Sequence record: PP627281.1
DNA: 57,280 nucleotides
Strand: one strand, 5' to 3'
Origin: Escherichia phage KS_W4
Part shown: positions 18,639 through 53,883 of the stretch, piece by piece
How the letters are laid out: every line of letters begins with the position of its first letter
Position numbering within the stretch: position 1 is the stretch's first letter
Program-made: the position numbers and the translations under genes
Notes under the pieces: model-generated
Told to the model about the DNA's origin: nothing
The model's database searches: none
What the model saw: only the letters and a program-made list of their open reading frames with translations

Positions 18639-19799
18639 ATGGCAACTCGTTTACGTGGTACTTTAGTTGATGGTTTAAATAAACCAATTGTCAACGCTAC
18701 AGTTGCGCTTTTAGCAAAAGGGAATAGCTTATTGGTATTGTCCGGCAGTGAAGCTATCTTTAAAACAAGCGCAACCGGAACATATGATATTACAGTCCAA
18801 ACAGGCTATTACAAGGTTATTATCGGTCCGCAAGGTAGCGAGCCTTATAAAGCTGGTGAAATTGCTATTTACGCGGACAGTAAAGAAGGTACGCTGAATA
18901 ACTATTTAACTTCCTGGGCACCGGAAGAGTTAACTCCGGAAGTTATTGCACAGGTTAAAGATTTAGTTTCACAAGCTGAGACAGCTAAGAATGCTTCAGC
19001 TTCGTCAGCTACTAAATCCGAGCAGGAACGAGTTAAAGCAGAAGCTGCTGCTAAAAAGGCGGAAGATACTGCTAACGGTATGAAAGATTCTATTGGTCTA
19101 GCTAACAGACCTCGTCATATTGAAGATATCACTGGAAATCCTGCAAGCTTCCTTGGGTTTATACGCATTCTAAGAGCCACTACCGTAGGATATCCGTCTA
19201 TTGCCAGCGCAGATAACACTTTAGCTGGTTTTATTTCCCCAATGGATGGAACGCCAGGCTATATTGGTTTATTTGTTGGCGATGTGACTGGAACAGTTTA
19301 TAGTTACCGATGGGTACAAACGAAGGGTGCTTCATGGTGGAAAAGTGCTCTTTACAGTCAAATTGATAGATATATTCAGCTGGCTAGCGGTGAGACTCAG
19401 ATGAAGAGCGGTAATGCTAATTACCATCTATACATTAACGATCTGCAAGGATGGGGAGCCTATGATAATATTAATAAGCGGTTTATACCCCTGCCAGTTG
19501 CCAAAGGCGGTACAGGGGCGCTCACAGACGCGGATGCTCGTACAAACTTACGCCTCGGTGCTAATGATACACCGCAGTTCAGAAACCTTAATCTTGTTAA
19601 CGTAGCAGACACAGCTCAAGCCCCTTCCGGTATTGTGAGCGGTTATTTAAATAATAGTTCTGGAGTTCAAAGATGTCGCTACCGCATATATTCTGAGATA
19701 CGCGGAGATAACAAAGCGTGGTTAACCTTACACCTTCAATCAGACACAGCAACAAATAAATATGCTGGTTTAAGTGTGGATGGTAAATTTCATTGGTAA
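18639..19799 (+). CDS. tail fibre protein
   Basis: RBS GGGAGAT before ATG at 18639 (ORF track starts at GTG 18627); contains WGAYD...IPLP...GGTGA...TNL motif also found in the next ORF. Confidence 0.55.
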   Translation: MATRLRGTLVDGLNKPIVNATVALLAKGNSLLVLSGSEAIFKTSATGTYDITVQTGYYKVIIGPQGSEPYKAGEIAIYADSKEGTLNNYLTSWAPEELTPEVIAQVKDLVSQAETAKNASASSATKSEQERVKAEAAAKKAEDTANGMKDSIGLANRPRHIEDITGNPASFLGFIRILRATTVGYPSIASADNTLAGFISPMDGTPGYIGLFVGDVTGTVYSYRWVQTKGASWWKSALYSQIDRYIQLASGETQMKSGNANYHLYINDLQGWGAYDNINKRFIPLPVAKGGTGALTDADARTNLRLGANDTPQFRNLNLVNVADTAQAPSGIVSGYLNNSSGVQRCRYRIYSEIRGDNKAWLTLHLQSDTATNKYAGLSVDGKFHW

Positions 19800-21333
19800 C
19801 GCTATAAGTCTATCAGATGTACAAACGTCCAAAGTAAACCTACAGGTAAATAGATTCCTGCAAGCTACAGGCGAAACTGATGTGGTTAACCATGCAGGGA
19901 CAGCTCAAATTTTTATCACTGATAATAAAAATTGGGGGGCTTACGATAAAGAATTAAAGCGTCATATCCCTTTGCCCATTTCACAGGGTGGGACTGGAGC
20001 GGTTACTATTGGTGACGCTAAGACAAATTTACAAATACCTTCTGTTGGTGCTGGAGACTGGTTGGAGATTGCTGCTCCTTCTGGCGTTGAAGCGGGGAAA
20101 TATTATCCAATTGTAATCAAAGCTCAATATGCCTCTTTATATGCTTCTGGTTTCTTTATAGATATACAAACTAGAAGCTCTAGAGGTTCAGATCCTATGA
20201 ACTGTTGTACATTTAACGGATTCATACGAACAGGTGGTTGGTCGGATAGGAAAGACGCTGGCTATGGATACTATAACCGATATGGTTCTAATGAGCTTGC
20301 TTTAAAATGCATATTGGTATCCGCTAAGAATGCTGAAGACAATATAGCTGTATATGTAGAAGGTAGAGCATTCCCAGTGAAAATGCGCATACCTCAATTT
20401 TGCACAGCTACGGCAGTCGCTTCAGCTTCTACATATGGTGAAGTGACATTTGCTTGGGGTACATCCAATCCTGCTACAGATTCAGTTGGGGTAAATACCC
20501 TATTTGATTTCTCTTTAAATAGAGTTGGTTTTTATCAAGCATCTACTGAAGGAAACTATTATATTGGTAACGGCCAACGTATAGTTCTTTCTAATGGGAT
20601 GTCCGTAGGGGATGAATTAACCTTAACCACACCTAAGATTACTTTCAGTGGCACAGTAGCAGCGGGTAACGGTTTTATTGCGGATGGGACGTCTGTATCC
20701 AATGCTACTTTTTATAGTCGTTATCGTGTCGGTGATACTGTTTACGGTGCGGAGTTCCGGGCTAGTGAGAATGCAGCCCAAGTTATTGTCGGAGACCCAG
20801 CAGGAACTAATCATCAATTCTTCAACTTTAATCTTAATGGTACATTTAGCGCGCCAAACGGTTTATTAAGCTCCACTGGTGTTGATTGGACGTTACGTCG
20901 GGACGCTACCGATTCAACTACCATGTTCCCACACCAGAAGGTTAGCTGGCTTAATGCTGGCTGTGAACCTATGGGCGATGGAAGGGTTCATTACTGTTGG
21001 ATTATGGGAGTGATACCGCCTACGCCTGGCACTATCGAACGACCCGTGAATGTGATGTATGTCGGCTTCCACCAGTTTAAAATCACGATCGCTCCAAACT
21101 CCATTAGTCAGTCTGATCTTGATCGTATGCACGTTTACGTCAGCGATGGTACAGACTTTGCAGGTGATTTTATTAATAAGTTTCTTGGTATGCAACCTGA
21201 GCAACCTGTAGAAGCTCGCGAGCACATTAGCCCGTGGCCGCCAATGATTGATCAGGAAGTGTTACAGCCAAAGACCGCTCAAACGGCCCCTCAGAAACCG
21301 GAGCAGAAGGTGAAACCAAATGACGAAGAATGA
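19780..21333 (+). CDS. tail fibre protein 2 / receptor-binding candidate
   Basis: about 517 aa; starts (GTG 19774 or ATG 19780) in a different frame overlapping the upstream fibre stop; N-terminus repeats the WGAYD...GGTGA...TNL motif. Confidence 0.5.
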   Translation: MVNFIGNAISLSDVQTSKVNLQVNRFLQATGETDVVNHAGTAQIFITDNKNWGAYDKELKRHIPLPISQGGTGAVTIGDAKTNLQIPSVGAGDWLEIAAPSGVEAGKYYPIVIKAQYASLYASGFFIDIQTRSSRGSDPMNCCTFNGFIRTGGWSDRKDAGYGYYNRYGSNELALKCILVSAKNAEDNIAVYVEGRAFPVKMRIPQFCTATAVASASTYGEVTFAWGTSNPATDSVGVNTLFDFSLNRVGFYQASTEGNYYIGNGQRIVLSNGMSVGDELTLTTPKITFSGTVAAGNGFIADGTSVSNATFYSRYRVGDTVYGAEFRASENAAQVIVGDPAGTNHQFFNFNLNGTFSAPNGLLSSTGVDWTLRRDATDSTTMFPHQKVSWLNAGCEPMGDGRVHYCWIMGVIPPTPGTIERPVNVMYVGFHQFKITIAPNSISQSDLDRMHVYVSDGTDFAGDFINKFLGMQPEQPVEAREHISPWPPMIDQEVLQPKTAQTAPQKPEQKVKPNDEE

Positions 21334-25425: not shown

Positions 25426-26378
25426 TAGACACGTTCTCCAATTAATACACCGCGAAGATTTTCCCCAAAGAATGCGCAAGGTTGCGGATACAAACTAAAG
25501 TCCGCAGTCTTAACCACATTTTCAAGCAATAGCAGGATATCAATATTGTACACTCCCGTAATTGTCCGGTCCTGCAATACGAAGCTTGCACCTTCTGCAT
25601 CGTCGTAATGAGTACGGGCTAGACCGTTTTCAATATATACGCGAGGACGGTCTTCTGCAAACGGTTTAATTTTATGCAAGCCCTCAAATAGACCTGGATC
25701 AACAGGATGCGCATTGCATTGAACATTTAAAATACGACGTATATCTGGCCACTCCGCATCAATAAGCTGTGTCCGCAACCAGCGACCTTCCGGATAATGA
25801 AACGTCACATTGTTCTTGCTAACCTGAATATGTGTAGGGTTAGCTTTAATGCGCAATATTTCTTTGATAGCAACAGACGGTATTATGCAGTCTATAGGGA
25901 ACTGATTGCCAAACCAGTATTCCGCAATAGTCACGTTATTTGTAGCAAACAGGCTACCGTTATTAATCAGGATACCGCAAGCCCACGGACGGGAAGCATC
26001 GGAGCCTACAAACGGAGCAACGGACTTCACACCATGTACGAAGCGAGCACCGTCTATTTCATACAGATCCCCTTCAGGGGATACATGCGGAGTTTCTTTA
26101 TCGATGCAGCGTATAGCAACACGAAACGGGCCTGACTTGATATTCAGCTTACCGTTAGCCATCATTGTTAGCTGCACTGTTTCATCACAGTTTGAAATAG
26201 CTTTAATCATTGGACCAGCTTCAGGCTTGCAATCAATATCCAGCTCAATGGGGCTGCCCAGTGCAATAACACCGTTAAAGCCTTGTACCTGCCCGTCACG
26301 AATAAGAAAACTGGTAAGCCCTTCTACCAGTTCCTTTTTAGCGACGGAGCCTTGAACAAATTTAAGAGCGTCTAACAT
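25425..26378 (-). CDS. sliding clamp-like protein (beta-clamp fold, putative)
   Basis: 317 aa; three-part repeat architecture and sequence pattern reminiscent of DnaN-type clamps; translationally coupled to the polymerase gene. By-eye inference only. Confidence 0.4.
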   Translation of the reverse strand: MLDALKFVQGSVAKKELVEGLTSFLIRDGQVQGFNGVIALGSPIELDIDCKPEAGPMIKAISNCDETVQLTMMANGKLNIKSGPFRVAIRCIDKETPHVSPEGDLYEIDGARFVHGVKSVAPFVGSDASRPWACGILINNGSLFATNNVTIAEYWFGNQFPIDCIIPSVAIKEILRIKANPTHIQVSKNNVTFHYPEGRWLRTQLIDAEWPDIRRILNVQCNAHPVDPGLFEGLHKIKPFAEDRPRVYIENGLARTHYDDAEGASFVLQDRTITGVYNIDILLLLENVVKTADFSLYPQPCAFFGENLRGVLIGERV

Positions 26379-26605
26379 TAGCGATCCTCGATTGCTCTAA
26401 TTGTGGTTAAATCTAATTCACAGGTTGGAGGGTATCCATAAAGTCCCATTTGTTTTCCTTGTGCATTAAACCATGTGCCTGACGGATCCTGCCACTGCTT
26501 AGGTGTCTTGTGGAGAAATACTACTCTGTTTTCACCGTAATAATTAATTCTTACGCCTGTGTGAGTATATTTACGTTTACCTTTTGGTCTTCTTAAGTTA
26601 GCCAT
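26378..26605 (-). CDS. hypothetical protein
   Basis: 75-aa ORF coupled between the DpdA and clamp-like genes. Confidence 0.4.
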   Translation of the reverse strand: MANLRRPKGKRKYTHTGVRINYYGENRVVFLHKTPKQWQDPSGTWFNAQGKQMGLYGYPPTCELDLTTIRAIEDR

Positions 26606-27525
26606 CAGAACAACTCCATTACACGATCACGGAATGTGCCGTCATGGGTGGCGTTAATGTTTGCAGCAATTACACCATACGCCCATAAGTTGAAAGCAGC
26701 ACGTGATTCATAGATTGTTGACAAACGTTCGTAAGTGAAACCGTTTTGCTCAAGGTATTTAAGGACAGCGTCTTGTTCAATTTCAGTTAATGTTGAAACA
26801 TGCTTACCAAAATGATGGCGGTCCGGTGACTTATCTGATACGCGCATTGGTCCCCACGGAGGAGTAACTACACTTCCAAACGCTGCCGCTTGAATCCAGG
26901 AGGATGAGTCACAGCTATACCACGGGTAACGTTCCATAATGGTAGTGGACGTAATACCAAATGCATGAAGCTTAATCTTAGGACGACCGCTACCATCGCA
27001 AATATATTTGTCCCACATACGATCAAGCCAAGTTTTAAGTGTGTCCGTTGAACGCCCTACCATGCCACCAATCGTGATATATTCGTAGTTCTTCATGTAA
27101 TATTCAAGATAGCGGAAGTCTTCACCGAAGTGAAAGCAGGGTAACGGTTTGGCGCCTCGTGCTTCCATTTCAAGCTGGTTACGGTATGTCTGCAACGGAT
27201 CACCGATGCCATCGAGCACCGACGCCATTACTGCACCATCTTCTACGCGAAGGATGTCTTTGTTGCGCTTAATGTATTCGCAGTATTCAACAATATCAAT
27301 GTGAGCACCCAAAGAGTGCGCGGAGAATGCACCGGAGTCGAGAAACACTTTAGCCCCGTCCGCACGCATTTGATCAACATACTTCTGACGCCCAACGTAG
27401 TGGTACGATTCCAAAATATGGGGCAGGTTGCGAGTGATATTTTTCTCATGCTCGGATAGCTTTTCGTAACGCTGCTGTCCAGGCATATATCCGTTCGTGT
27501 AAACTGCTGCCATAAAAACGTTCAT
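26605..27525 (-). CDS. dpdA: DpdA-like DNA-guanine transglycosylase (TGT family)
   Basis: 306 aa; GGAGGA RBS; FLDSGAF motif and TGT-like length; adjacent to the preQ0 synthesis genes. Confidence 0.65.
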   Translation of the reverse strand: MNVFMAAVYTNGYMPGQQRYEKLSEHEKNITRNLPHILESYHYVGRQKYVDQMRADGAKVFLDSGAFSAHSLGAHIDIVEYCEYIKRNKDILRVEDGAVMASVLDGIGDPLQTYRNQLEMEARGAKPLPCFHFGEDFRYLEYYMKNYEYITIGGMVGRSTDTLKTWLDRMWDKYICDGSGRPKIKLHAFGITSTTIMERYPWYSCDSSSWIQAAAFGSVVTPPWGPMRVSDKSPDRHHFGKHVSTLTEIEQDAVLKYLEQNGFTYERLSTIYESRAAFNLWAYGVIAANINATHDGTFRDRVMELF

Positions 27526-27728
27526 TTTTGGAACGGTCCTCCAAACTGATCAATTAGTTCTAAAGTACGCCACGCTTCATTAAATGCTTCGTCCGCGCGA
27601 TGTTTAGCGTCAATAAGCTGCTGCTTTAAGACATCTGTAGGCGCATCATTCTGTATTGCAGAACAAGCATCCGCAGTACCTGCTTTAAGCTGGTAGAATG
27701 CTGTCTCTAAGATTAGTTGTCTTGACAT
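27522..27728 (-). CDS. hypothetical protein
   Basis: 68 aa from ATG 27728 with GGAGGA RBS, just after a terminator. Confidence 0.4.
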   Translation of the reverse strand: MSRQLILETAFYQLKAGTADACSAIQNDAPTDVLKQQLIDAKHRADEAFNEAWRTLELIDQFGGPFQK

Positions 27729-27742
27729 ATTTCCTCCAATGA

Positions 27743-27780
27743 CTAAAAAGCCCATACCAGTATTATGACCGATATGGGCT
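27743..27780 (-). terminator. putative terminator after folE
   Basis: AGCCCATA ... TATGGGCT stem (16-nt loop) followed on the minus strand by CTTTTTAG. Confidence 0.45.
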
Positions 27781-27799
27781 TGATCTGTAAAGCTATCTA

Positions 27800-28408
27800 T
27801 TATTTACAAGCTTCAAGGAACTCCCGGCGCCATTCTTTACCAATATTGCTACCATGCTCCAGTTCTGTAGCGCCCCGGAACGCTTTGGTAATAGTAGAGC
27901 TGCCACATACCTGCTTAACCCCGCGCGATTCCATGCACATATGCTTAGCATCGATATAAACACATACAGCTTTCGGATTTAGGTGCTCCTGGATAGCGTC
28001 TGCAATCTGGTTAGTTAGACGCTCTTGCACTTGCAAGCGACGGCTAAAAGCATCAACCACGCGAGACAGTTTACTGAGCCCCACAATGCGACCGTTAGGA
28101 ACATACCCCACGACAGCGCGACCGATAATAGGGGCCATATGGTGTTCACAATGACTGTAAACAGGAATATCACGAACAATAACCATTTCATTAGTATCTT
28201 CCGCCCCGTCCTCAAAGGTCTTAAACAGACCAGCAATATCTACATCGTAACCGCCGAACCATGTAGCATAAGCTTTTGCTACACGCTCCGGAGTTTCCTC
28301 CAGCCCTGGGCGCAGAACCGCGCTAACTTCAATTTGAGATAGTAAAGTACGCACAGCGTTAGCAATACGGAATTGAACACCTTCACTATTAATACTATAT
28401 TTAGACAT
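27800..28408 (-). CDS. folE: GTP cyclohydrolase I
   Basis: about 202 aa from ATG 28408 (AAGGAAA RBS); conserved CEHHMAPI segment typical of FolE. Confidence 0.75.
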   Translation of the reverse strand: MSKYSINSEGVQFRIANAVRTLLSQIEVSAVLRPGLEETPERVAKAYATWFGGYDVDIAGLFKTFEDGAEDTNEMVIVRDIPVYSHCEHHMAPIIGRAVVGYVPNGRIVGLSKLSRVVDAFSRRLQVQERLTNQIADAIQEHLNPKAVCVYIDAKHMCMESRGVKQVCGSSTITKAFRGATELEHGSNIGKEWRREFLEACK

Positions 28409-28442
28409 GGTTTGCAGTTTCCTTGTTGTTAATGTGGTCATA

Positions 28443-28979
28443 TTACAGGCTATAGTTTACGTGACATTTCGAAGTTTCTTCGATGGTGCATTCTACAAGT
28501 TGAACACCATGTTCGTCAAGCAGTTGCGGCCCAATTACTTCAACCATGTACGCAGCCAGATTTTCAGCAGTAGGATTGAACGGTAAAGACACCAGTGAAT
28601 CGTTAAAAGCTTTAAGATCTTCATCCCCTTCACCGAAAGTAGGCCAACCGCGTTCAGATTGAGTATCCGTTTCAATACAACATTGCAGTCCGTTGATCAA
28701 CATATCCTTTTCCCAATGTAGAAACTTATGATCCCAGTTATCTTCTAGCCACTGGCAGAGCGTAGTTTTAACCACACTAAAGTCAATCACGCGCCCAACG
28801 CTGTCCAGACCGTCCTCAATCAGCTTTCCTCGTGTCACTACTTTTCCGCATCCATGCTTCGGAGCAACCTTAAAGTGAAACTTATAGTTGTGACCGTGGA
28901 GGTGGCGACATTTGCTTTCGTGACCTACAACACGATGTCCGGCGCAAATTTCATGTGAACGAATTACTGTATAGCTCAT
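28443..28979 (-). CDS. queD: 6-carboxy-5,6,7,8-tetrahydropterin synthase
   Basis: 178 aa; CxxxHGH-type signature (CAGHRVVGHESKCRHLHGHNY). Confidence 0.7.
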   Translation of the reverse strand: MSYTVIRSHEICAGHRVVGHESKCRHLHGHNYKFHFKVAPKHGCGKVVTRGKLIEDGLDSVGRVIDFSVVKTTLCQWLEDNWDHKFLHWEKDMLINGLQCCIETDTQSERGWPTFGEGDEDLKAFNDSLVSLPFNPTAENLAAYMVEVIGPQLLDEHGVQLVECTIEETSKCHVNYSL

Positions 28980-29566
28980 TTTAATACCTCTTTAGACTGT
29001 TCAATTTCTAATGCACGCTGTGCGGATGCAATAATATCTTTCAAGTCTTCTACCAGACTTTTATGACCGCGTTCGCCCGGCTGCAACGCCTTTTTAATTA
29101 AATGTTGTAAAGCTGGGTTAGTTGTTTTCCAAGCTTCCAAGACATCATACACGTCCACGATGCATTTTACAACATTGCCGTTTTGATCTTTACCATAAAT
29201 AATTTTCTGATATTTATTCATGGGAATTTTAGATGGTTCATATTTGGTAAAAACTGCACCATTAAATGTATTACTTATGCTTATTCCAGAAGAAGGTTGA
29301 TGGTACACTCCGGAGCGAGTGTTTTCGCTGGCTTGTTTGACGTAATCATCCGCAACGATATATCGCCAGGCTATAATATCTTGAACTTTATAAGGGCTAT
29401 TTTCATCCATAGCTGAACGCCCTTCTATAGCCCAATCCCATCCATGTAATAGATTCTTAACGTGTGTGCCGTTGCGCAAACGAACTTCAAACTTTTCATT
29501 GCGAAGAAAGATTGGCATTCCTTTCCCATCGTGCTGGTGCCAAATTTTATTAAGATTATCTTTCAT
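28976..29566 (-). CDS. hypothetical protein within the 7-deazaguanine cluster
   Basis: about 196 aa from ATG 29566 (track starts at TTG 29605); no motif recognised. Confidence 0.45.
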   Translation of the reverse strand: MKDNLNKIWHQHDGKGMPIFLRNEKFEVRLRNGTHVKNLLHGWDWAIEGRSAMDENSPYKVQDIIAWRYIVADDYVKQASENTRSGVYHQPSSGISISNTFNGAVFTKYEPSKIPMNKYQKIIYGKDQNGNVVKCIVDVYDVLEAWKTTNPALQHLIKKALQPGERGHKSLVEDLKDIIASAQRALEIEQSKEVLK

Positions 29567-29567
29567 T

Positions 29568-30047
29568 TTACGCTCTCGCTGTACGTGATTGAACTTCGTA
29601 AACAATCCAAAGGATAGCGGATGCTGTGAACTTACTTAAGCTCATTGCTACCATTGATCCCGGATTAACAATACCTATAATACTTAAGAACACAATGGAG
29701 TCAATCGGTACAGCTACCAAAGAGCTAATAAATACACGTTGATGAAACGGCTTCTTAGTAATCGTGTATACCGCATAGTCCGCAAACTCGCTAAGAGCAA
29801 AGGATGCAACGGATGCAACTACAACAGCAGGATCCCCAAATACCCAGCTAAGGATGCAACCAACAATCATTGCAGGGATAACGCCTTTACCAGCGTTACG
29901 CTGTGCGTAGTCACGCAACACAAAGATAATACCTACAAAGAAAGCCATCATGGGGACTACGCCAAGAGGCGTGTTAAGCATCGGAAGGTAGGAAAAGCCA
30001 AGGTTTACGAATGTAATTGCAGCCAGATAAGCAACGATAAATTTCAT
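29568..30047 (-). CDS. YhhQ/DUF165-like membrane protein (putative queuosine-precursor transporter)
   Basis: about 159 aa from ATG 30047 (GGAGAA RBS); six hydrophobic segments; pattern resembles YhhQ-family transporters. Confidence 0.45.
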   Translation of the reverse strand: MKFIVAYLAAITFVNLGFSYLPMLNTPLGVVPMMAFFVGIIFVLRDYAQRNAGKGVIPAMIVGCILSWVFGDPAVVVASVASFALSEFADYAVYTITKKPFHQRVFISSLVAVPIDSIVFLSIIGIVNPGSMVAMSLSKFTASAILWIVYEVQSRTARA

Positions 30048-30167
30048 ACTTTTGTTCTCCAGTTTTAACAGCGTTATTCGCTGGTTGTTGGGTTTAAAAG
30101 CTTTAGTAGTATAGTTGGGTCCCCGCACCCTAAACAATGCGCTAGCGGTGCGGTTTTCGCGGTAAGA

Positions 30168-30875
30168 TCAAGCTTTGCTAATAAATTCGCTGTACCCTTT
30201 AGCACGCAGTTTGCACGCAGGACATTCACCGCAACCATATCCCCAGTCATGCAGAGTGCGACGGACGCCGTTATAACACGTATGGGACTGCTCAATTACT
30301 GTGGTTAAGAAACCAACCTTATCCGCCAGCTCAAACGTTTCAGCTTTATTTAAACGCATAAGCGGAGTAACAAAATGGATATCTGTTTCATATCCAACGT
30401 TTAATGTAGCTTCAAGCAGGTCTACAAACTGCTGGCGGCAATCCGGATAACCGCTATAGTCTGTTTCACAAACGCCTGTAACCACATATCGGGCTCCAAC
30501 CTTCTGCGCGTAGGCGTGAGCGGTAGTCAGAAAAAGCGCATTACGGTTTGGCACAAAGCTTGCCGGAAGGTTGTTGTGCTGTTCGTGATGTTCGTTAACA
30601 TCACCTTCGTTCCCGATTAAAGCACTATTGCCAATCTGTTTTAAAGCAGGTAATTCAAAGACAACAAATGGGACATCGTGCTCTTTACAAATTTGATTAG
30701 CACAAGCCAGCTCAATGTTATGACGTTGACCGTATGCAAAACCAATAGCGTAGACCTTATCATAGTTATTAAGGGCAAGACCCAAACAGGTCACGCTGTC
30801 CTGGCCGCCAGACAGGACGACAACGGCGGAGTTATGATTTTTTACAGGGAATACCAGTTTATCTAATTTATTCAT
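30168..30875 (-). CDS. queC: 7-cyano-7-deazaguanine synthase
   Basis: about 235 aa from ATG 30875; PP-loop SGGQDS motif; C-terminal Cys cluster (CGECPAC). Confidence 0.8.
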   Translation of the reverse strand: MNKLDKLVFPVKNHNSAVVVLSGGQDSVTCLGLALNNYDKVYAIGFAYGQRHNIELACANQICKEHDVPFVVFELPALKQIGNSALIGNEGDVNEHHEQHNNLPASFVPNRNALFLTTAHAYAQKVGARYVVTGVCETDYSGYPDCRQQFVDLLEATLNVGYETDIHFVTPLMRLNKAETFELADKVGFLTTVIEQSHTCYNGVRRTLHDWGYGCGECPACKLRAKGYSEFISKA

Positions 30876-30876
30876 T

Positions 30877-31065
30877 TTAGAACCCTTTAAGGCTAATATT
30901 AAGATTAACGACCACTTGTTCAACTACATCATCAGATGTCATCTGACGCTTATGAATTTCAAGCTCCGAATGTATGTTCTTGGATGCAGCACGACAGATA
31001 GCGTCATTCAGCTCGTCTTGTAAACGTTGCATCTTCTGCATAAGAATTACAGTTTCTTCATTCAT
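30877..31065 (-). CDS. hypothetical small protein
   Basis: 62-aa ORF; appears paralogous to the next upstream 70-aa ORF. Confidence 0.35.
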   Translation of the reverse strand: MNEETVILMQKMQRLQDELNDAICRAASKNIHSELEIHKRQMTSDDVVEQVVVNLNISLKGF

Positions 31066-31270
31066 CTTCTACACCTTTAATATCACAAGGGTTGATTGTT
31101 ACGTTTGACATCACAATCGGATGATTGCGTGCTCCGATTGTACTAACGTGGTTAATATCTAATTCAACATGCACACCCTGCATAGTAGCGTGAGCAATTG
31201 CAGAATTAAGTTTTTCTACCAGCTCAGTGATCATTTCCTGATGCTGTTTCGCTTCTTCCAAAGTGATCAT
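31058..31270 (-). CDS. hypothetical small protein
   Basis: 70-aa ORF in the que cluster. Confidence 0.35.
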   Translation of the reverse strand: MITLEEAKQHQEMITELVEKLNSAIAHATMQGVHVELDINHVSTIGARNHPIVMSNVTINPCDIKGVEDE

Positions 31271-31525
31271 TTAAACCTCCGTTAATGTTTGAGTCCAGTC
31301 TAAGCCTTCAAGGTCTACATCAGCTATTTCATCGTACTCGTAAGCTCCCGGATCTGCTGGCAGCCATCTATCAAATCGATGGCTGAGTTCTGGAGGAATT
31401 GCTTCATACCCCCAAACCTTCCCATCCTTGTCGGCTGCCAGATAATCAACTCGACTTGGAACGGTTAAAGTGACACCACAAAAATTAACATCTTTAGTAT
31501 GCACAACCTGACTTAATACACGCAT
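31271..31525 (-). CDS. hypothetical protein (VDLEGxDW family)
   Basis: 84 aa; C-terminal ADVDLEGLDWTQTLTEV shared with the ORF at 52069-52374. Confidence 0.45.
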   Translation of the reverse strand: MRVLSQVVHTKDVNFCGVTLTVPSRVDYLAADKDGKVWGYEAIPPELSHRFDRWLPADPGAYEYDEIADVDLEGLDWTQTLTEV

Positions 31526-32232
31526 TATTCCACCCCGATATATTTGTGAACCTGAAGCTGCAACGTGTACCCGTGTTTCATACAGCTTTTGACAACCGCT
31601 TGGATGTTACTGTGGTTAAGATCTTCATCCTGCTCGTCCATTGGCTGTAAATATATCTTACCCTTGAACCCCTTCGGAGGTCTAGCGATAAATGGCGTAG
31701 CTTGATGATCTAATGCCTGAAGCGGTAAACCGTCTTCCACGTTTACACAGCACGCTTTAAGCACATATTTAAATGCGTTTGCTCGGTACAGCACAGTAGG
31801 ATGAATTTTTGAAGTCTTAGGACTGCATACAATGACAGGCAGCTGGGAAAAGTTCTTAGGTAAAGGCATAGACCCATTCGTTTCAATTTGTACAAGATAC
31901 CCGCGCGATAAGAGTTGTTCGACAAACGGGTTAATTTGCTGACGGAACGGTTCACCCCCAGTAATAACCACAAGTGAGGTGCTATTGCCTGATTCCAGCT
32001 TACGGCTTTCGATTAAACGCATGATATCAACAATGTGATAAAGAGAACGACCTACAGTATAGTCAGTATCACAGCCCGGACATTGCAGGTTACACCCAGC
32101 AAGTCGCACAAATACAGCAGGTTGGCCGCAGAATGGCCCTTCACCCTGAATGGTAGAGAATACCGAATGCACGTCTAAATACATATCGTTTTCTTTAGAA
32201 CGAGACTCGGGAGCTTGTTGATTAATATTCAT
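31525..32232 (-). CDS. queE: 7-carboxy-7-deazaguanine synthase (radical SAM)
   Basis: 235 aa; CNLQCPGC (Cx3Cx2C-type) cluster; GGEP motif; RBS AGAGGA. Confidence 0.75.
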   Translation of the reverse strand: MNINQQAPESRSKENDMYLDVHSVFSTIQGEGPFCGQPAVFVRLAGCNLQCPGCDTDYTVGRSLYHIVDIMRLIESRKLESGNSTSLVVITGGEPFRQQINPFVEQLLSRGYLVQIETNGSMPLPKNFSQLPVIVCSPKTSKIHPTVLYRANAFKYVLKACCVNVEDGLPLQALDHQATPFIARPPKGFKGKIYLQPMDEQDEDLNHSNIQAVVKSCMKHGYTLQLQVHKYIGVE

Positions 32233-32246
32233 CTTAAATCCTCTAG

Positions 32247-32276
32247 TGAAAAAGAAAGCGCCTCATTGGGCGCTTT
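32247..32276 (-). terminator. rho-independent terminator
   Basis: AAAGCGCC-CAATGA-GGCGCTTT followed by CTTTTTC on the minus strand. Confidence 0.65.
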
Positions 32277-32301
32277 CATTATAACGTGATATGTTTTGAT
32301 A

Positions 32302-33114
32302 TTACAAGCCGTTCAGGGCTTCCGGTACTGGTACAGGTACGCGACCAGTCACACCATTAAATTTCTTCCAGCGTGCATACTGGGTTTTAACGGTATCTTC
32401 GTTCAGCCCATGGCGACCGGCCAGATTCAGAACATAAGAGATCGGAGCAGGTTGGCCCAGCGTAGCGCTAATCTGGTCCATCAGAGCCCAAGCACGACCG
32501 CAGGAAGTTTCCGGTTGCGGACGGCGAACACCGTTCTGTTCCGGCATACGATTAGCTTCTTTTTCTTTCTCGCGGAGTTCTTTAGCGCGTGCTTTTTCCG
32601 CTTCTTTTTCTGCCTGTTTTGCAGCACGGATCTTGTCTTTGAAGCCTTTAATAGTAGCTTCCAGACCATCCACCAGACCCTGGGCAGAAGTTACAGCACC
32701 GGACAGGTCTTCACCTTTAGACTTCTTAACGACAGCTTTCAGCTCTTTCAGAGCTTCTTTAATGGTCTTCAGGTTTGCAGATCCCTGAGTTTCTGCTTCC
32801 GTGATCTGTTCAACAGTGCTTTCGTCGGTGACGGTAGCCAAAGAGTTTTTCAGGATTTCAGCAGCGTTAGCAATCGCATTAAATTTGTTTTCCGCTTCAG
32901 TGCGGATTTCAGCTTGTTTCTTTTCAGCGGCAGCTTTTTTCTCTGCTTCTTTTTTCTCTTTTGCTACGCGTGCAGCTTCAGCAGCAGCGGCTTTCTTAGC
33001 TTCTGCATCATTCACAGTAGCTTCTTTCTTTGCAGGTTTAGCAGATTTTGCAGCGGCAGCAGCGGCAGCAGCGGCAGCGGCTTTTTTATCTTCAATGTTG
33101 CTCATTCTCTTCAC
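32302..33114 (-). CDS. Ala/Lys/Glu-rich protein with conserved C-terminal domain
   Basis: 270 aa; poly-Ala tract encoded by GCN repeats at 33050-33082; C-terminal about 45 aa shared with the ORF at 48588-49202. Confidence 0.5.
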   Translation of the reverse strand: MKRMSNIEDKKAAAAAAAAAAAKSAKPAKKEATVNDAEAKKAAAAEAARVAKEKKEAEKKAAAEKKQAEIRTEAENKFNAIANAAEILKNSLATVTDESTVEQITEAETQGSANLKTIKEALKELKAVVKKSKGEDLSGAVTSAQGLVDGLEATIKGFKDKIRAAKQAEKEAEKARAKELREKEKEANRMPEQNGVRRPQPETSCGRAWALMDQISATLGQPAPISYVLNLAGRHGLNEDTVKTQYARWKKFNGVTGRVPVPVPEALNGL

Positions 33115-33232
33115 TCCGAATTGTTATGGGTTCGTTTGTTACCAACGGGGTTAAATGTACCAAAGGATTTTGTGACACGCAACCCCTTATCTGAATATTT
33201 TTAAAAATATTTTTGATCAAGCTTAGAACTTA

Positions 33233-33727
33233 CTAACTCTTTGCCCCTCTGCCCGGTGTCCATGCGGCTTGCAATGCGGGTTGCTCACAAACGACCCTGG
33301 CACCGGAAATAATACCACCCTCCCGTTCAGCATCGTATTTGACACGGGCAGGTTTCCAAAGTCCTTCATCCATTGACGGAACGTATTGCCCAATTTGAGG
33401 TGAGCAAAAGCCTTGGATATCGTATTCCACACAGAATTCGGCTTGTGCGCTGATTTGGGCGTGATCCAGGATTGTTTCTGGAAGTTGCGTAAAGTAATCA
33501 AACAAAATGCGCTCAACGATTTCCCGTTCATAAGGTGCAGCTCCTAAGTTTTCTGTCAAGTTAATATAAAGCATTTGAAGATCAACATCTTCAAGATCAT
33601 GTAAATCGTCTACTGGTGTCACCAGTGTTGACTCAGGGCAACAAATAATTCCAAGTTGGTGTAGTGTCAGCCAATTGGGATGCTTTGCCAAGAGTTCAAA
33701 TTTATCTGTATCAATCAGGACGTACAT
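33233..33727 (-). CDS. hypothetical protein
   Basis: 164-aa acidic ORF. Confidence 0.4.
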   Translation of the reverse strand: MYVLIDTDKFELLAKHPNWLTLHQLGIICCPESTLVTPVDDLHDLEDVDLQMLYINLTENLGAAPYEREIVERILFDYFTQLPETILDHAQISAQAEFCVEYDIQGFCSPQIGQYVPSMDEGLWKPARVKYDAEREGGIISGARVVCEQPALQAAWTPGRGAKS

Positions 33728-53490: not shown

Positions 53491-53883
53491 ATGCTATTAG
53501 TCGTCACCGGAGGGCGTAATTTTAAACATGTAGAGTATATTTATGCTCAACTGGATAAGTTGCATACGCAAAGAAGGATAACCACACTTCGCCACGGTGA
53601 CGCTGACGGTGTTGACCGGATTTGCGCACATTGGGCAGAGCGCAACGGTATTAAGACAGAAGCGTTCCCTGCCCCGTGGGACAATCTTTCCTTACCAAAT
53701 ACCAAGATACGGTATAACGCCAAGGGTGCTTATAATGCACAAGCTGGTGCTTACCGCAATCAATTAATGCTGGATACTGATCCTAAACCAGATCACGCTA
53801 TTGTGTTTCCTGGCGGAGCTGGTACTATGGACATGTACAGACGGATTAAAGCATCCGGTATTCCTTACACATTAGCGGAGTAA
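53491..53883 (+). CDS. SLOG/LOG-like Rossmann-fold protein (putative)
   Basis: 130 aa; VVTGGR, GDADGVD and VFPGGAGTMDM motifs resemble the LOG/SLOG superfamily. Confidence 0.35.
   Translation: MLLVVTGGRNFKHVEYIYAQLDKLHTQRRITTLRHGDADGVDRICAHWAERNGIKTEAFPAPWDNLSLPNTKIRYNAKGAYNAQAGAYRNQLMLDTDPKPDHAIVFPGGAGTMDMYRRIKASGIPYTLAE

What the first reader, a model, noticed from the sequence alone, without database searches (positions are those of the whole stretch)
26605..32232. 7-Deazaguanine DNA modification cluster
A contiguous minus-strand block encodes FolE (CEHHMAPI), QueD (CxxxHGH), QueC (SGGQDS PP-loop), QueE (Cx3Cx2C radical SAM) and a TGT-family DpdA-like protein (FLDSGAF). Together these make preQ0 and insert it into DNA in place of guanine, as established for the Dpd system and for phage DNA deazaguanine modifications. 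No QueF or amidotransferase-QueC fusion is visible, which argues for preQ0-type rather than archaeosine-type modified DNA. Several intercalated ORFs of unknown function could encode further tailoring steps. This system would confer resistance to host restriction.
Basis: partly seen in the sequence, partly recalled or inferred. Interest (0 to 1): 0.75.

Follow-up and report, generated by a model that had tools for sequence, protein, structure and literature searches.

The report
Known Seuratvirus preQ0 DNA-modification cluster
The region is the well-studied gene cluster that lets Seuratvirus coliphages (model: phage CAjan) replace about a quarter to a third of the guanines in their DNA with preQ0 to blunt host restriction; it is real, but ordinary and already characterised.

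Summary
Window 26605-32232 (minus strand) encodes DpdA, FolE, QueD, QueC and QueE, and every quoted motif is present. The window is a near-complete Seuratvirus (Queuovirinae) genome, 91-97% nucleotide-identical to E. coli phages PLYYY01, RCIP0359, GottfriedDienst, Seurat and CAjan.

The DpdA differs from CAjan DpdA at one residue (P182/A182). QueE, QueC and the YhhQ-like protein are 96-98% identical to their CAjan counterparts. In CAjan, LC-MS/MS found 70,628 dPreQ0 per 10^6 nt and no other tested derivative. Deleting dpdA abolished the modification. Nanopore mapping placed it at GA and GGC.

- One "unknown" ORF is a short VUT/YhhQ-family putative preQ0 transporter.
- The other intercalated ORFs are small and genus-specific, or variably present.
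- orf196 carries a C-terminal domain that is common in phages lacking deazaguanine genes.
- Nothing supports extra tailoring steps.

Prediction for this phage: about 28% of its G (GA plus GGC contexts) is replaced by dPreQ0.

Verdict: already known, low interest.

The parts
26378..26605 (-). orf75, a small ORF of unknown function. It is the first gene of the 12-gene CAjan 'deazaguanine cluster' as drawn by Kot et al. 2020.
   Evidence: phrog_38388 8.4e-58. 100% identical to the CAjan homolog. No homolog detected in JenK1, Vid5 or HTN2.
26605..27525 (-). DpdA (phage DpdA1 subfamily), a DNA-guanine transglycosylase that exchanges G for preQ0 in dsDNA.
   Evidence: - phrog_887 2.3e-96.
- 99.7% identical to CAjan DpdA, with one difference, P182 here and A182 in CAjan.
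- The active-site residues named for CAjan (D63, S64, F67, D105, H132, G153, G154, F189, D206) are all invariant in a 40-sequence alignment (PMC7544227).
27522..27755 (-). orf77, a small ORF of unknown function.
   Evidence: phrog_20065 2.1e-40. 93.5% identical to CAjan. Not found in distant DpdA1 phages.
27800..28441 (-). FolE, GTP cyclohydrolase I (GTP to H2NTP).
   Evidence: PF01227 4.7e-63. TIGR00063 at 192.2 bits against a cut-off of 181.6. CEHHMAPI motif. 83.9% identical to CAjan.
28443..28979 (-). QueD, 6-carboxytetrahydropterin synthase (H2NTP to CPH4).
   Evidence: PF01242 2.4e-22. CRHLHGH motif. 77.8% identical to CAjan and 99% to PLYYY01 and GottfriedDienst.
28976..29566 (-). orf196, a two-domain protein of unknown function: a variable N-terminal part and a highly conserved C-terminal domain of about 60 aa.
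   Evidence: - phrog_23361 4.9e-101.
- Only 56.9% identical to the CAjan homolog.
- The C-terminal domain (NKYQ..DVYDVL.AW..NPALQHLIKKALQPGERGHK..EDL.DI.ASA.RA) is invariant across 38 proteins with unrelated N-termini.
- The domain occurs in phage contigs without deazaguanine genes.
29568..30047 (-). YhhQ-like short VUT-family membrane protein, a putative preQ0 importer for salvage.
   Evidence: - Pfam Vut_1 at 24.1 bits, below the 27.2 cut-off. TIGR00697 at 20.3 bits, below the 50.95 cut-off.
- Most homologs carry a precomputed PF02592 hit, and the family links to proteins named 'queuosine precursor transporter' at 1e-13 to 1e-9.
- 4-5 hydrophobic segments.
- 97.4% identical to CAjan YhhQ, whose deletion did not change the modification (PMC7544227).
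30168..30875 (-). QueC, 7-cyano-7-deazaguanine (preQ0) synthase. It stands alone with no amidotransferase domain.
   Evidence: PF06508 1.2e-74. TIGR00364 at 242.7 bits against a cut-off of 150.3. SGGQDS PP-loop and C-terminal CGECPAC. 96.4% identical to CAjan QueC. Only 29% identical to the QueC part of Nonagvirus Gat-QueC.
30877..31065 (-). orf62, a small ORF of unknown function.
   Evidence: phrog_24420 5.5e-45. 85.5% identical to CAjan. Only a marginal match to Vid5 ORF39 (E 0.014).
31058..31270 (-). orf70, a small ORF of unknown function. Some records label it 'radical SAM domain-containing', with no support found here.
   Evidence: phrog_26258 2.7e-51. No Pfam hit even at E up to 10. 97% identical to CAjan.
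31271..31525 (-). orf84, an accessory small ORF that is variably present among Seuratviruses.
   Evidence: - A 251-bp segment (31272-31522) is absent from GottfriedDienst.
- No match in the CAjan cluster locus fetched here.
- 100% identical in PLYYY01, KS_A8, OddieOddie and WildeMaa; 47-54% identical copies next to queE in other Seuratviruses and Nonagviruses.
- Distant homologs occur in jumbo phages.
- phrog_1972.
31525..32232 (-). QueE, the radical-SAM 7-carboxy-7-deazaguanine synthase (CPH4 to CDG).
   Evidence: phrog_2076 3.9e-68. Five NCBIfam QueE models at 1e-27 to 2.5e-20, all below their equivalog cut-offs. CNLQCPGC cluster motif. 98.3% identical to CAjan QueE.
32254..32277 (-). GC-rich hairpin followed by a T-run, between orf270 and queE. 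It looks like a terminator, and a TTGTAA-N18-TATAAT promoter-like site lies just upstream.
   Evidence: Consensus scan and the sequence itself. Function not tested. Promoter-like and terminator-like counts in the region do not exceed those in shuffled sequence.

Best explanation
This is the Seuratvirus (CAjan-type) dPreQ0 DNA hypermodification module. It sits in the replication gene block between the helicase and the DNA polymerase.

Proposed mechanism:
1. FolE converts GTP to H2NTP.
2. QueD converts H2NTP to CPH4.
3. The radical-SAM enzyme QueE converts CPH4 to CDG.
4. QueC, using ATP and ammonia, converts CDG through ADG to the free base preQ0.
5. The short VUT/YhhQ-like membrane protein can probably import external preQ0. 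It is dispensable in CAjan.
6. DpdA, a TIM-barrel transglycosylase of the TGT superfamily, acts on replicated double-stranded phage DNA. It flips out G in GA and GGC contexts. Asp206 attacks C1' to release guanine, and Asp63 deprotonates the incoming preQ0, which is joined in its place.

About 28% of G in this genome lies in those contexts. The modified DNA resists many type I and type II restriction enzymes.

Shown here, by sequence and fold only: presence, integrity and family membership of all genes, conservation of the catalytic residues, and absence of further tailoring enzymes.

Inferred from near-identical CAjan proteins and published experiments: the chemistry of the product, the target motifs and the protective effect.
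For: - Window identity. The window is 91-97% identical across its length to Seuratvirus genomes. GottfriedDienst is annotated with DpdA, FolE, QueD, YhhQ, QueC and QueE in the same order.
- Protein identity to CAjan: DpdA 99.7%, QueE 98.3%, YhhQ 97.4%, QueC 96.4%, FolE 83.9%, QueD 77.8%.
- Family hits and motifs.
- Published CAjan data. There are 70,628 dPreQ0 per 10^6 nt, while dADG, dG+, dPreQ1 and dQ are each below 6 per 10^6. A dpdA deletion removes all modification (PMC6884629). The motifs are GA and GGC. folE and queC deletions lose protection, and a yhhQ deletion changes nothing (PMC7544227).
- BASEL Seuratviruses resist type I and II RM systems in vivo but are sensitive to type III (PMC8594841).
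- In this window 24.25% of G lies in GA and 4.07% in GGC. CAjan has 23.96% and 4.28% (PMC10484667).
- No tRNA gene and no Rfam hit in the window.
- No QueF, GATase, ArcS, DpdM-type or DpdN-type families in 20 other ORFs.
Against: - No chemistry was done on this phage, so the product and motif are extrapolated from CAjan.
- DpdA has no Pfam TGT hit and no PDB sequence hit, even with a profile.
- The AF2 model is only moderate (pLDDT 66; residues 213-306 are poor). Foldseek against the PDB was weak (arcTGT at rank 2, E 6.7e-3).
- QueE and the YhhQ-like protein fall below the curated cut-offs of the bacterial models.
- FolE and QueD are noticeably diverged from CAjan (84% and 78%).
- orf196 is only 57% identical to its CAjan homolog.
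- orf84 is absent from CAjan, and CAjan has a 107-aa ORF that is absent here. The accessory content is therefore not identical to that of the tested phage.
Confidence: 0.93

Rival explanations
1. The cluster makes a different final DNA base (for example dADG, dG+, dPreQ1 or an undescribed derivative), because one of the unassigned intercalated ORFs (orf196, orf84, orf77, orf62, orf70, orf75) further modifies preQ0 or dPreQ0.
For: - Six ORFs in the cluster have no assigned function. Kot et al. also list half of the CAjan cluster as unassigned.
- orf84 is not in CAjan, and orf196 is only 57% identical to its CAjan homolog. CAjan chemistry therefore does not strictly cover them.
Against: - CAjan has homologs of all these ORFs except orf84, and its DNA holds only dPreQ0 among the derivatives tested.
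- None of the ORFs matches any enzyme family in Pfam, NCBIfam or PADLOC.
- Five of them are only 62-84 aa long.
- They are not conserved in the JenK1, Vid5 or HTN2 clusters.
- The conserved domain of orf196 occurs in phages without deazaguanine genes.
- orf84 homologs occur in jumbo phages.
- WildeMaa (Bas24) carries orf84 at 100% identity and is annotated as a dPreQ0 phage.
Confidence: 0.04
2. The cluster acts on RNA or on host metabolism. Under this reading the TGT-like protein modifies tRNA, and the preQ0 genes boost queuosine or archaeosine in host tRNA to tune translation, rather than modifying phage DNA.
For: - Many database records annotate the DpdA homologs as 'queuine tRNA-ribosyltransferase'.
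- The closest solved fold is archaeal tRNA-guanine transglycosylase.
Against: - The near-identical CAjan DpdA is required for dPreQ0 in DNA.
- 9g dpdA does not complement E. coli delta-tgt, yet it does put preQ0 into plasmid DNA.
- The protein is 306 aa and lacks the C-terminal tRNA-binding domains of arcTGT: 192 residues aligned to the 577-residue 1iq8 chain.
- There is no Pfam TGT hit.
- The phage has no tRNA genes.
Confidence: 0.02
3. The cluster is present but not functional in this isolate, being decaying or silenced, so the DNA is canonical.
For: Nothing specific. FolE and QueD are more diverged from CAjan than the other enzymes.
Against: - All five enzyme ORFs are full length with intact catalytic motifs.
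- They are 97-100% identical to those of other isolates such as PLYYY01 and GottfriedDienst.
- Genes abut or overlap by a few bases, as in relatives.
Confidence: 0.01

Closest known systems
Escherichia phage CAjan 7-deazaguanine (dPreQ0) cluster (Seuratvirus; Hutinet et al. 2019, Kot et al. 2020)
   Same: Same genus. Same gene order: orf75-dpdA-orf-folE-queD-...-yhhQ-queC-orf-orf-queE. DpdA is 99.7% identical, QueE 98.3%, YhhQ 97.4% and QueC 96.4%. The share of G in GA and GGC contexts is also the same.
   Different: FolE and QueD alleles are diverged (84% and 78%). orf196 is only 57% identical. CAjan has an extra 107-aa ORF between queD and the orf196 homolog. This window has orf84 between orf70 and queE, which CAjan lacks.
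Escherichia phages PLYYY01 and GottfriedDienst (Bas21) and other Seuratvirus isolates
   Same: 95-96% nucleotide identity over the cluster. Cluster proteins are 89-100% identical. PLYYY01 also carries orf84.
   Different: GottfriedDienst lacks orf84. None of these isolates is identical to the window, so the window is another strain or species-level variant of the genus.
Nonagvirus (phage 9g, JenK1) dG+ (2'-deoxyarchaeosine) cluster
   Same: The order queE, queC-type gene, queD, folE, dpdA is the same, as is the position between helicase and polymerase. DpdA is 69% identical, FolE and QueD 74%, QueE 63%.
   Different: Nonagviruses carry a 471-aa Gat-QueC fusion. Here QueC is a 235-aa stand-alone protein only 29% identical to the QueC part of that fusion. 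The product is therefore dG+ there and dPreQ0 here.
Bacterial Dpd restriction-modification system (dpdA-K, Salmonella Montevideo; DpdA structure 7ui4)
   Different: There is no DpdB ATPase, no DpdC (so no dADG) and no DpdD-K restriction part. Phage DpdA scores only 16-17 bits on the bacterial DpdA models, against a cut-off of 200. The published modification level is about 30% of G for DpdA1 phages and below 0.1% for bacterial DpdA (PMC10516641).
Pseudomonas phage iggy and relatives (dPreQ0, GA-only motif)
   Same: Same enzyme set and order. DpdA is about 72% identical to that of the fetched Pseudomonas relative HTN2.
   Different: iggy DpdA modifies only GA, whereas the CAjan-type DpdA also modifies GGC (PMC10484667). 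The QueC alleles are unrelated or only distantly related (34% identity). HTN2, the Pseudomonas relative fetched, gave no YhhQ-like hit.

Membership tests
Seuratvirus/CAjan-type phage dPreQ0 DNA-modification cluster | Complete preQ0 synthesis set: FolE, QueD, QueE and QueC. | tested here: met
   - FolE: PF01227 4.7e-63.
- QueD: PF01242 2.4e-22.
- QueC: PF06508 1.2e-74.
- QueE: phrog_2076 3.9e-68 and NCBIfam QueE models at 1e-27.
- Catalytic motifs are present.
- 78-98% identical to the CAjan enzymes.
Seuratvirus/CAjan-type phage dPreQ0 DNA-modification cluster | A DpdA1-type DNA transglycosylase with the TGT fold and two catalytic aspartates. | tested here: met
Seuratvirus/CAjan-type phage dPreQ0 DNA-modification cluster | Stand-alone QueC (no Gat fusion) and no QueF, ArcS, DpdC, DpdL, DpdM or DpdN. 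| tested here: met
   QueC is 235 aa with a single domain. No such families appear among the cluster ORFs or 20 other window ORFs. ORFs under 100 aa outside the cluster were not scanned.
Seuratvirus/CAjan-type phage dPreQ0 DNA-modification cluster | Gene order queE-queC-queD-folE-dpdA, located between the helicase and the DNA polymerase with its clamp. | tested here: met
   PMC10484667.
Seuratvirus/CAjan-type phage dPreQ0 DNA-modification cluster | dPreQ0 actually present in virion DNA at GA and GGC. | not testable with these tools
   This needs LC-MS/MS or Nanopore sequencing against an amplified control. Only the prediction can be given: 28.3% of G, about 63,000 per 10^6 nt.
Bacterial Dpd system (dpdA-K) | DpdA matching the bacterial DpdA equivalog model. 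| tested here: not met
Bacterial Dpd system (dpdA-K) | DpdB ATPase, DpdC (preQ0 to ADG) and the DpdD-K restriction genes. | tested here: not met
   No PADLOC hits for the neighbouring and intercalated ORFs. No such genes are annotated in relatives.
Nonagvirus dG+ (archaeosine) type | Glutamine amidotransferase fused to QueC (Gat-QueC), or ArcS. | tested here: not met
   QueC is 235 aa here, whereas JenK1 Gat-QueC is 471 aa. Identity is 29% over the QueC part only. No GATase hit in the window ORFs scanned.
tRNA-guanine transglycosylase (Tgt/arcTGT, Pfam PF01702) | A sequence match to the TGT family model. | tested here: not met
   No Pfam hit even at E up to 10. No PDB sequence hit with the single sequence or with a profile.
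tRNA-guanine transglycosylase (Tgt/arcTGT, Pfam PF01702) | tRNA-binding C-terminal domains. | tested here: inconclusive
   The protein is only 306 aa, and 192 residues align to the 577-residue arcTGT chain 1iq8. This suggests the C-terminal tRNA-binding domains are absent, but residues 213-306 of the model are low-confidence and the domains were not searched for directly.
VUT/YhhQ queuosine-precursor transporter family (PF02592, TIGR00697) | A match to the family model above its cut-off, and a multi-pass membrane topology. | tested here: inconclusive
   The protein itself is just below both cut-offs: 24.1 against 27.2 bits, and 20.3 against 50.95 bits. Most homologs carry PF02592, and the family reaches proteins named 'queuosine precursor transporter' at 1e-13. 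There are 4-5 hydrophobic segments. At 159 aa it is shorter than the roughly 190-aa cellular relatives. Transport was never shown for the phage protein.

The most novel reading that the evidence does not exclude
One or more of the unassigned ORFs kept inside Seuratvirus clusters is a real accessory factor of the modification pathway. The best candidate is orf196, whose widespread phage domain is highly conserved. The other candidates are orf75, orf77, orf62 and orf70. Such a factor might help DpdA reach about 97% occupancy of its sites, protect the preQ0 pool from host QueF or Tgt, or set the extra GGC specificity. This would explain why DpdA expressed alone modifies well under 1% of G in E. 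coli plasmids.
Probability: 0.1. Interest if true: 0.5.

Novelty: already known. Interest (0 to 1): 0.12.

Why it matters
The system itself matters: 7-deazaguanine DNA protects phages from restriction enzymes and from Cas9 in vitro, and it is of interest for phage therapy and engineering. This instance adds nothing new, because its key enzyme differs by one residue from the experimentally dissected CAjan DpdA.

Its practical value is predictive:
- About 28% of G should be dPreQ0, at GA and GGC.
- The phage should resist type I and II restriction and be sensitive to type III systems (84 EcoP1I and 63 EcoP15I sites).
- It should be sensitive to nucleases that target hypermodified DNA, such as the END nucleases (PMC12191111).
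- Sequencing and cloning of this DNA will be affected accordingly.

Tried and rejected
- preQ1 riboswitch or other RNA element. I looked in the 120-nt queC-yhhQ gap and across the cluster. There was no Rfam hit at gathering threshold in the whole window, and only noise (E 0.17 or worse) in 26300-33300. Rejected.
- Conservation of the small ORFs in distant DpdA1 phages (JenK1, Vid5, HTN2). None was found, apart from the orf196 C-terminal domain in JenK1 gp35 and marginal orf62 and orf70 matches to Vid5 ORF39. I therefore dropped the idea that they are core pathway parts.
- Host origin of QueC. There was no DNA similarity to any complete E. coli genome.
- Promoter and terminator scan. Counts do not exceed those in shuffled sequence, so no operon claim is made beyond the tight gene packing.

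Full report
**Observation.** The minus strand of window 26605-32232 carries, in transcription order:
- QueE (31525-32232)
- three small ORFs of 84, 70 and 62 aa
- QueC (30168-30875)
- a short membrane protein (29568-30047)
- a 196-aa ORF (28976-29566)
- QueD (28443-28979)
- FolE (27800-28441)
- a 77-aa ORF
- DpdA (26605-27525)

A 75-aa ORF follows, then the DNA polymerase clamp and the polymerase. Family assignments are unambiguous for four enzymes: FolE (PF01227, 4.7e-63), QueC (PF06508, 1.2e-74), QueD (PF01242, 2.4e-22) and QueE (phrog_2076, 3.9e-68, plus five NCBIfam QueE models at about 1e-27 to 1e-20).

**What the window is.** Megablast places the whole 57,280-bp window in the genus Seuratvirus (Queuovirinae). 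It is 91-97% identical over nearly its full length to E. coli phages PLYYY01, RCIP0359, GottfriedDienst (Bas21), OddieOddie, Seurat and CAjan. In GottfriedDienst the same genes are annotated as DpdA, FolE, QueD, YhhQ, QueC ('dPreQ0 synthase') and QueE.

Protein identities to CAjan, the experimental model, are as follows:

| Protein | Identity to CAjan |
|---|---|
| DpdA | 99.7% |
| QueE | 98.3% |
| YhhQ-like | 97.4% |
| QueC | 96.4% |
| FolE | 83.9% |
| QueD | 77.8% |

The single DpdA difference is P182 here and A182 in CAjan, outside the active site.

**What is known about the CAjan cluster.**
- Hutinet et al. 2019 (PMC6884629) measured 70,628 dPreQ0 per 10^6 nt in CAjan DNA. dADG, dG+, dPreQ1 and dQ were each below 6 per 10^6, and a dpdA deletion removed all modification.
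- Kot et al. 2020 (PMC7544227) described the 12-gene CAjan cluster, six of whose genes are unassigned. The modification sits at GA and GGC. folE, queC and dpdA deletions lose it, and a yhhQ deletion does not.
- Kot et al. modelled DpdA on arcTGT, naming Asp206 as nucleophile, Asp63 as base, and a pocket of S64, F67, D105, H132, G153, G154 and F189.
- Maffei et al. [quoted passage not shown]
- A 2025 preprint reports END nucleases that target Seuratvirus and other hypermodified phages (PMC12191111).

**Tests made here on DpdA.** The protein has no Pfam TGT hit and no PDB sequence hit, even with a profile. It scores only 16-17 bits on the bacterial DpdA models, so it is not a member of the bacterial DpdA equivalog.
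- In a 40-sequence alignment of homologs about 70% identical, all nine residues named by Kot et al. are invariant.
- An AF2 model was moderate: pLDDT 66, with a well-predicted core at residues 50-210 and a poor C-terminal third.
- Foldseek was weak, with arcTGT at rank 2 (E 6.7e-3).

The TGT fold is therefore supported.

**preQ0 type versus other types.**
- QueC is a 235-aa single-domain protein that passes the NCBIfam QueC equivalog cut-off (242.7 against 150.3 bits).
- It is only 29% identical to the QueC part of the 471-aa Gat-QueC of Nonagvirus JenK1, whereas the flanking enzymes are 63-74% identical. The two genera therefore differ by a swapped queC allele, not merely by loss of a domain. 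Olsen et al. 2023 make a similar point for iggy.
- Twenty other window ORFs of 100 aa or more gave no QueF, GATase, ArcS/DUF5591, DUF3109 (DpdM-type) or formyltransferase hits.
- PADLOC found no DpdB or DpdC.
- The window has no tRNA gene and no Rfam match, including no preQ1 riboswitch.

**The intercalated ORFs.** One of them is not unknown. The 159-aa membrane protein belongs to a short subfamily of the VUT/YhhQ family. Its own scores fall just below the cut-offs. Most homologs carry PF02592, and the family reaches proteins named queuosine precursor transporter. This is the putative preQ0 importer that is dispensable in CAjan.

The rest give no sign of enzymatic function.
- orf75, orf77, orf62 and orf70 match only function-less PHROGs. 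BLAST does not detect them in the clusters of JenK1, Vid5 or Pseudomonas phage HTN2, although all five enzymes are conserved there.
- orf84 is a clean 251-bp accessory insertion. It is missing from GottfriedDienst and CAjan, identical in PLYYY01, KS_A8, OddieOddie and WildeMaa, and has distant homologs in jumbo phages.
- orf196 has a variable N-terminal part and a strikingly conserved C-terminal domain of about 60 aa (25 invariant positions across 38 proteins). That domain is attached to many unrelated N-termini. It also occurs in phage contigs whose neighbours are ERF, YqaJ, SSB and MazG rather than deazaguanine genes.
- The orf196 model gave no meaningful structural match.

CAjan DNA contains only dPreQ0 among the derivatives tested. 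Together with the results above, this leaves the idea of further tailoring steps unsupported, though it is not strictly excluded for orf84 and the diverged orf196.

**Quantitative prediction.** In this window 24.25% of G (both strands) is followed by A and 4.07% by GC. That totals 28.3% of G, or about 63,000 sites per 10^6 nt. CAjan is almost identical at 23.96% plus 4.28% (PMC10484667). With near-saturating DpdA the phage should carry about that much dPreQ0. Site counts for test digests are EcoRV 17, HaeIII 59, AanI 28 and NsiI 19.

**Comparison and verdict.** The module works like the bacterial Dpd modification half, in that DpdA inserts preQ0. It is not a member of that system, since it lacks DpdB, DpdC and the restriction genes. 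It is a full member of the CAjan-type Seuratvirus cluster. Interest is low. The only open point is the role, if any, of the unassigned ORFs, which has been open since 2020 and which this window does not make easier to address.

Noticed in passing
window 1-57280 (site counts): The genome has 0 EcoKI sites (AACN6GTGC, either orientation), where about 7 are expected for 57 kb of random sequence. It also has 0 BstEII sites. In contrast there are 84 EcoP1I and 63 EcoP15I sites. This suggests avoidance of the type I site on top of the base modification, and it fits the published sensitivity of Queuovirinae to type III systems. The expectation is a simple 4^-7 estimate, not a composition-corrected one.
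   Followed up: partly
window 32302-33114 (-), orf270: This 270-aa protein lies just upstream of queE. It has an Ala/Lys/Glu-rich low-complexity N-terminal half and a conserved C-terminal domain. Apart from the five enzymes it is the only neighbour conserved next to the cluster in JenK1 (43%), Vid5 (47%) and Pseudomonas phage HTN2 (65% over 69 aa). It is annotated 'transcriptional activator FtrA domain' in CAjan and Vid5, but it has no Pfam hit above noise. It could be a regulator or DNA-binding partner of the module.
   Followed up: partly
window 32254-32307 (-): A TTGTAA-N18-TATAAT promoter-like site is followed immediately by a 9-bp GC-rich hairpin and a T-run, then the RBS and start of queE. 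The order of promoter then terminator-like hairpin is odd and could be a regulatory leader. No Rfam family matches it.
   Followed up: partly
window 53491-53883 (+): This 130-aa ORF matches the YspA/cpYpsA-related SLOG family (PF10686, 9e-18), a predicted nucleotide-binding domain. A homolog is annotated next to the polymerase clamp in Pseudomonas phage HTN2, close to its deazaguanine cluster.
   Followed up: no
window 27800-28979 compared with 26605-27525: There is allelic mosaicism inside the cluster. DpdA is 99.7% identical to CAjan, while the adjacent FolE and QueD are 84% and 78% identical. The same FolE and QueD are 97-99% identical to those of PLYYY01. This implies recombination breakpoints within the module.
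   Followed up: partly
window 18962-20877: This is the largest segment with no counterpart in GottfriedDienst. It lies in the lateral tail fibre and receptor-binding region, which is the known hypervariable host-range locus of these siphoviruses. The 519-aa ORF 19774-21333 has no Pfam hit.
   Followed up: no
window 28976-29566 (-), residues ~118-190 of orf196: The C-terminal module is extremely conserved: about 75-79% identical across hundreds of metagenomic phage proteins with unrelated N-termini and no Pfam family. It looks like a widespread, uncharacterised phage domain. From memory it resembles DUF3310/SaV-like domains, which was not confirmed.
   Followed up: partly
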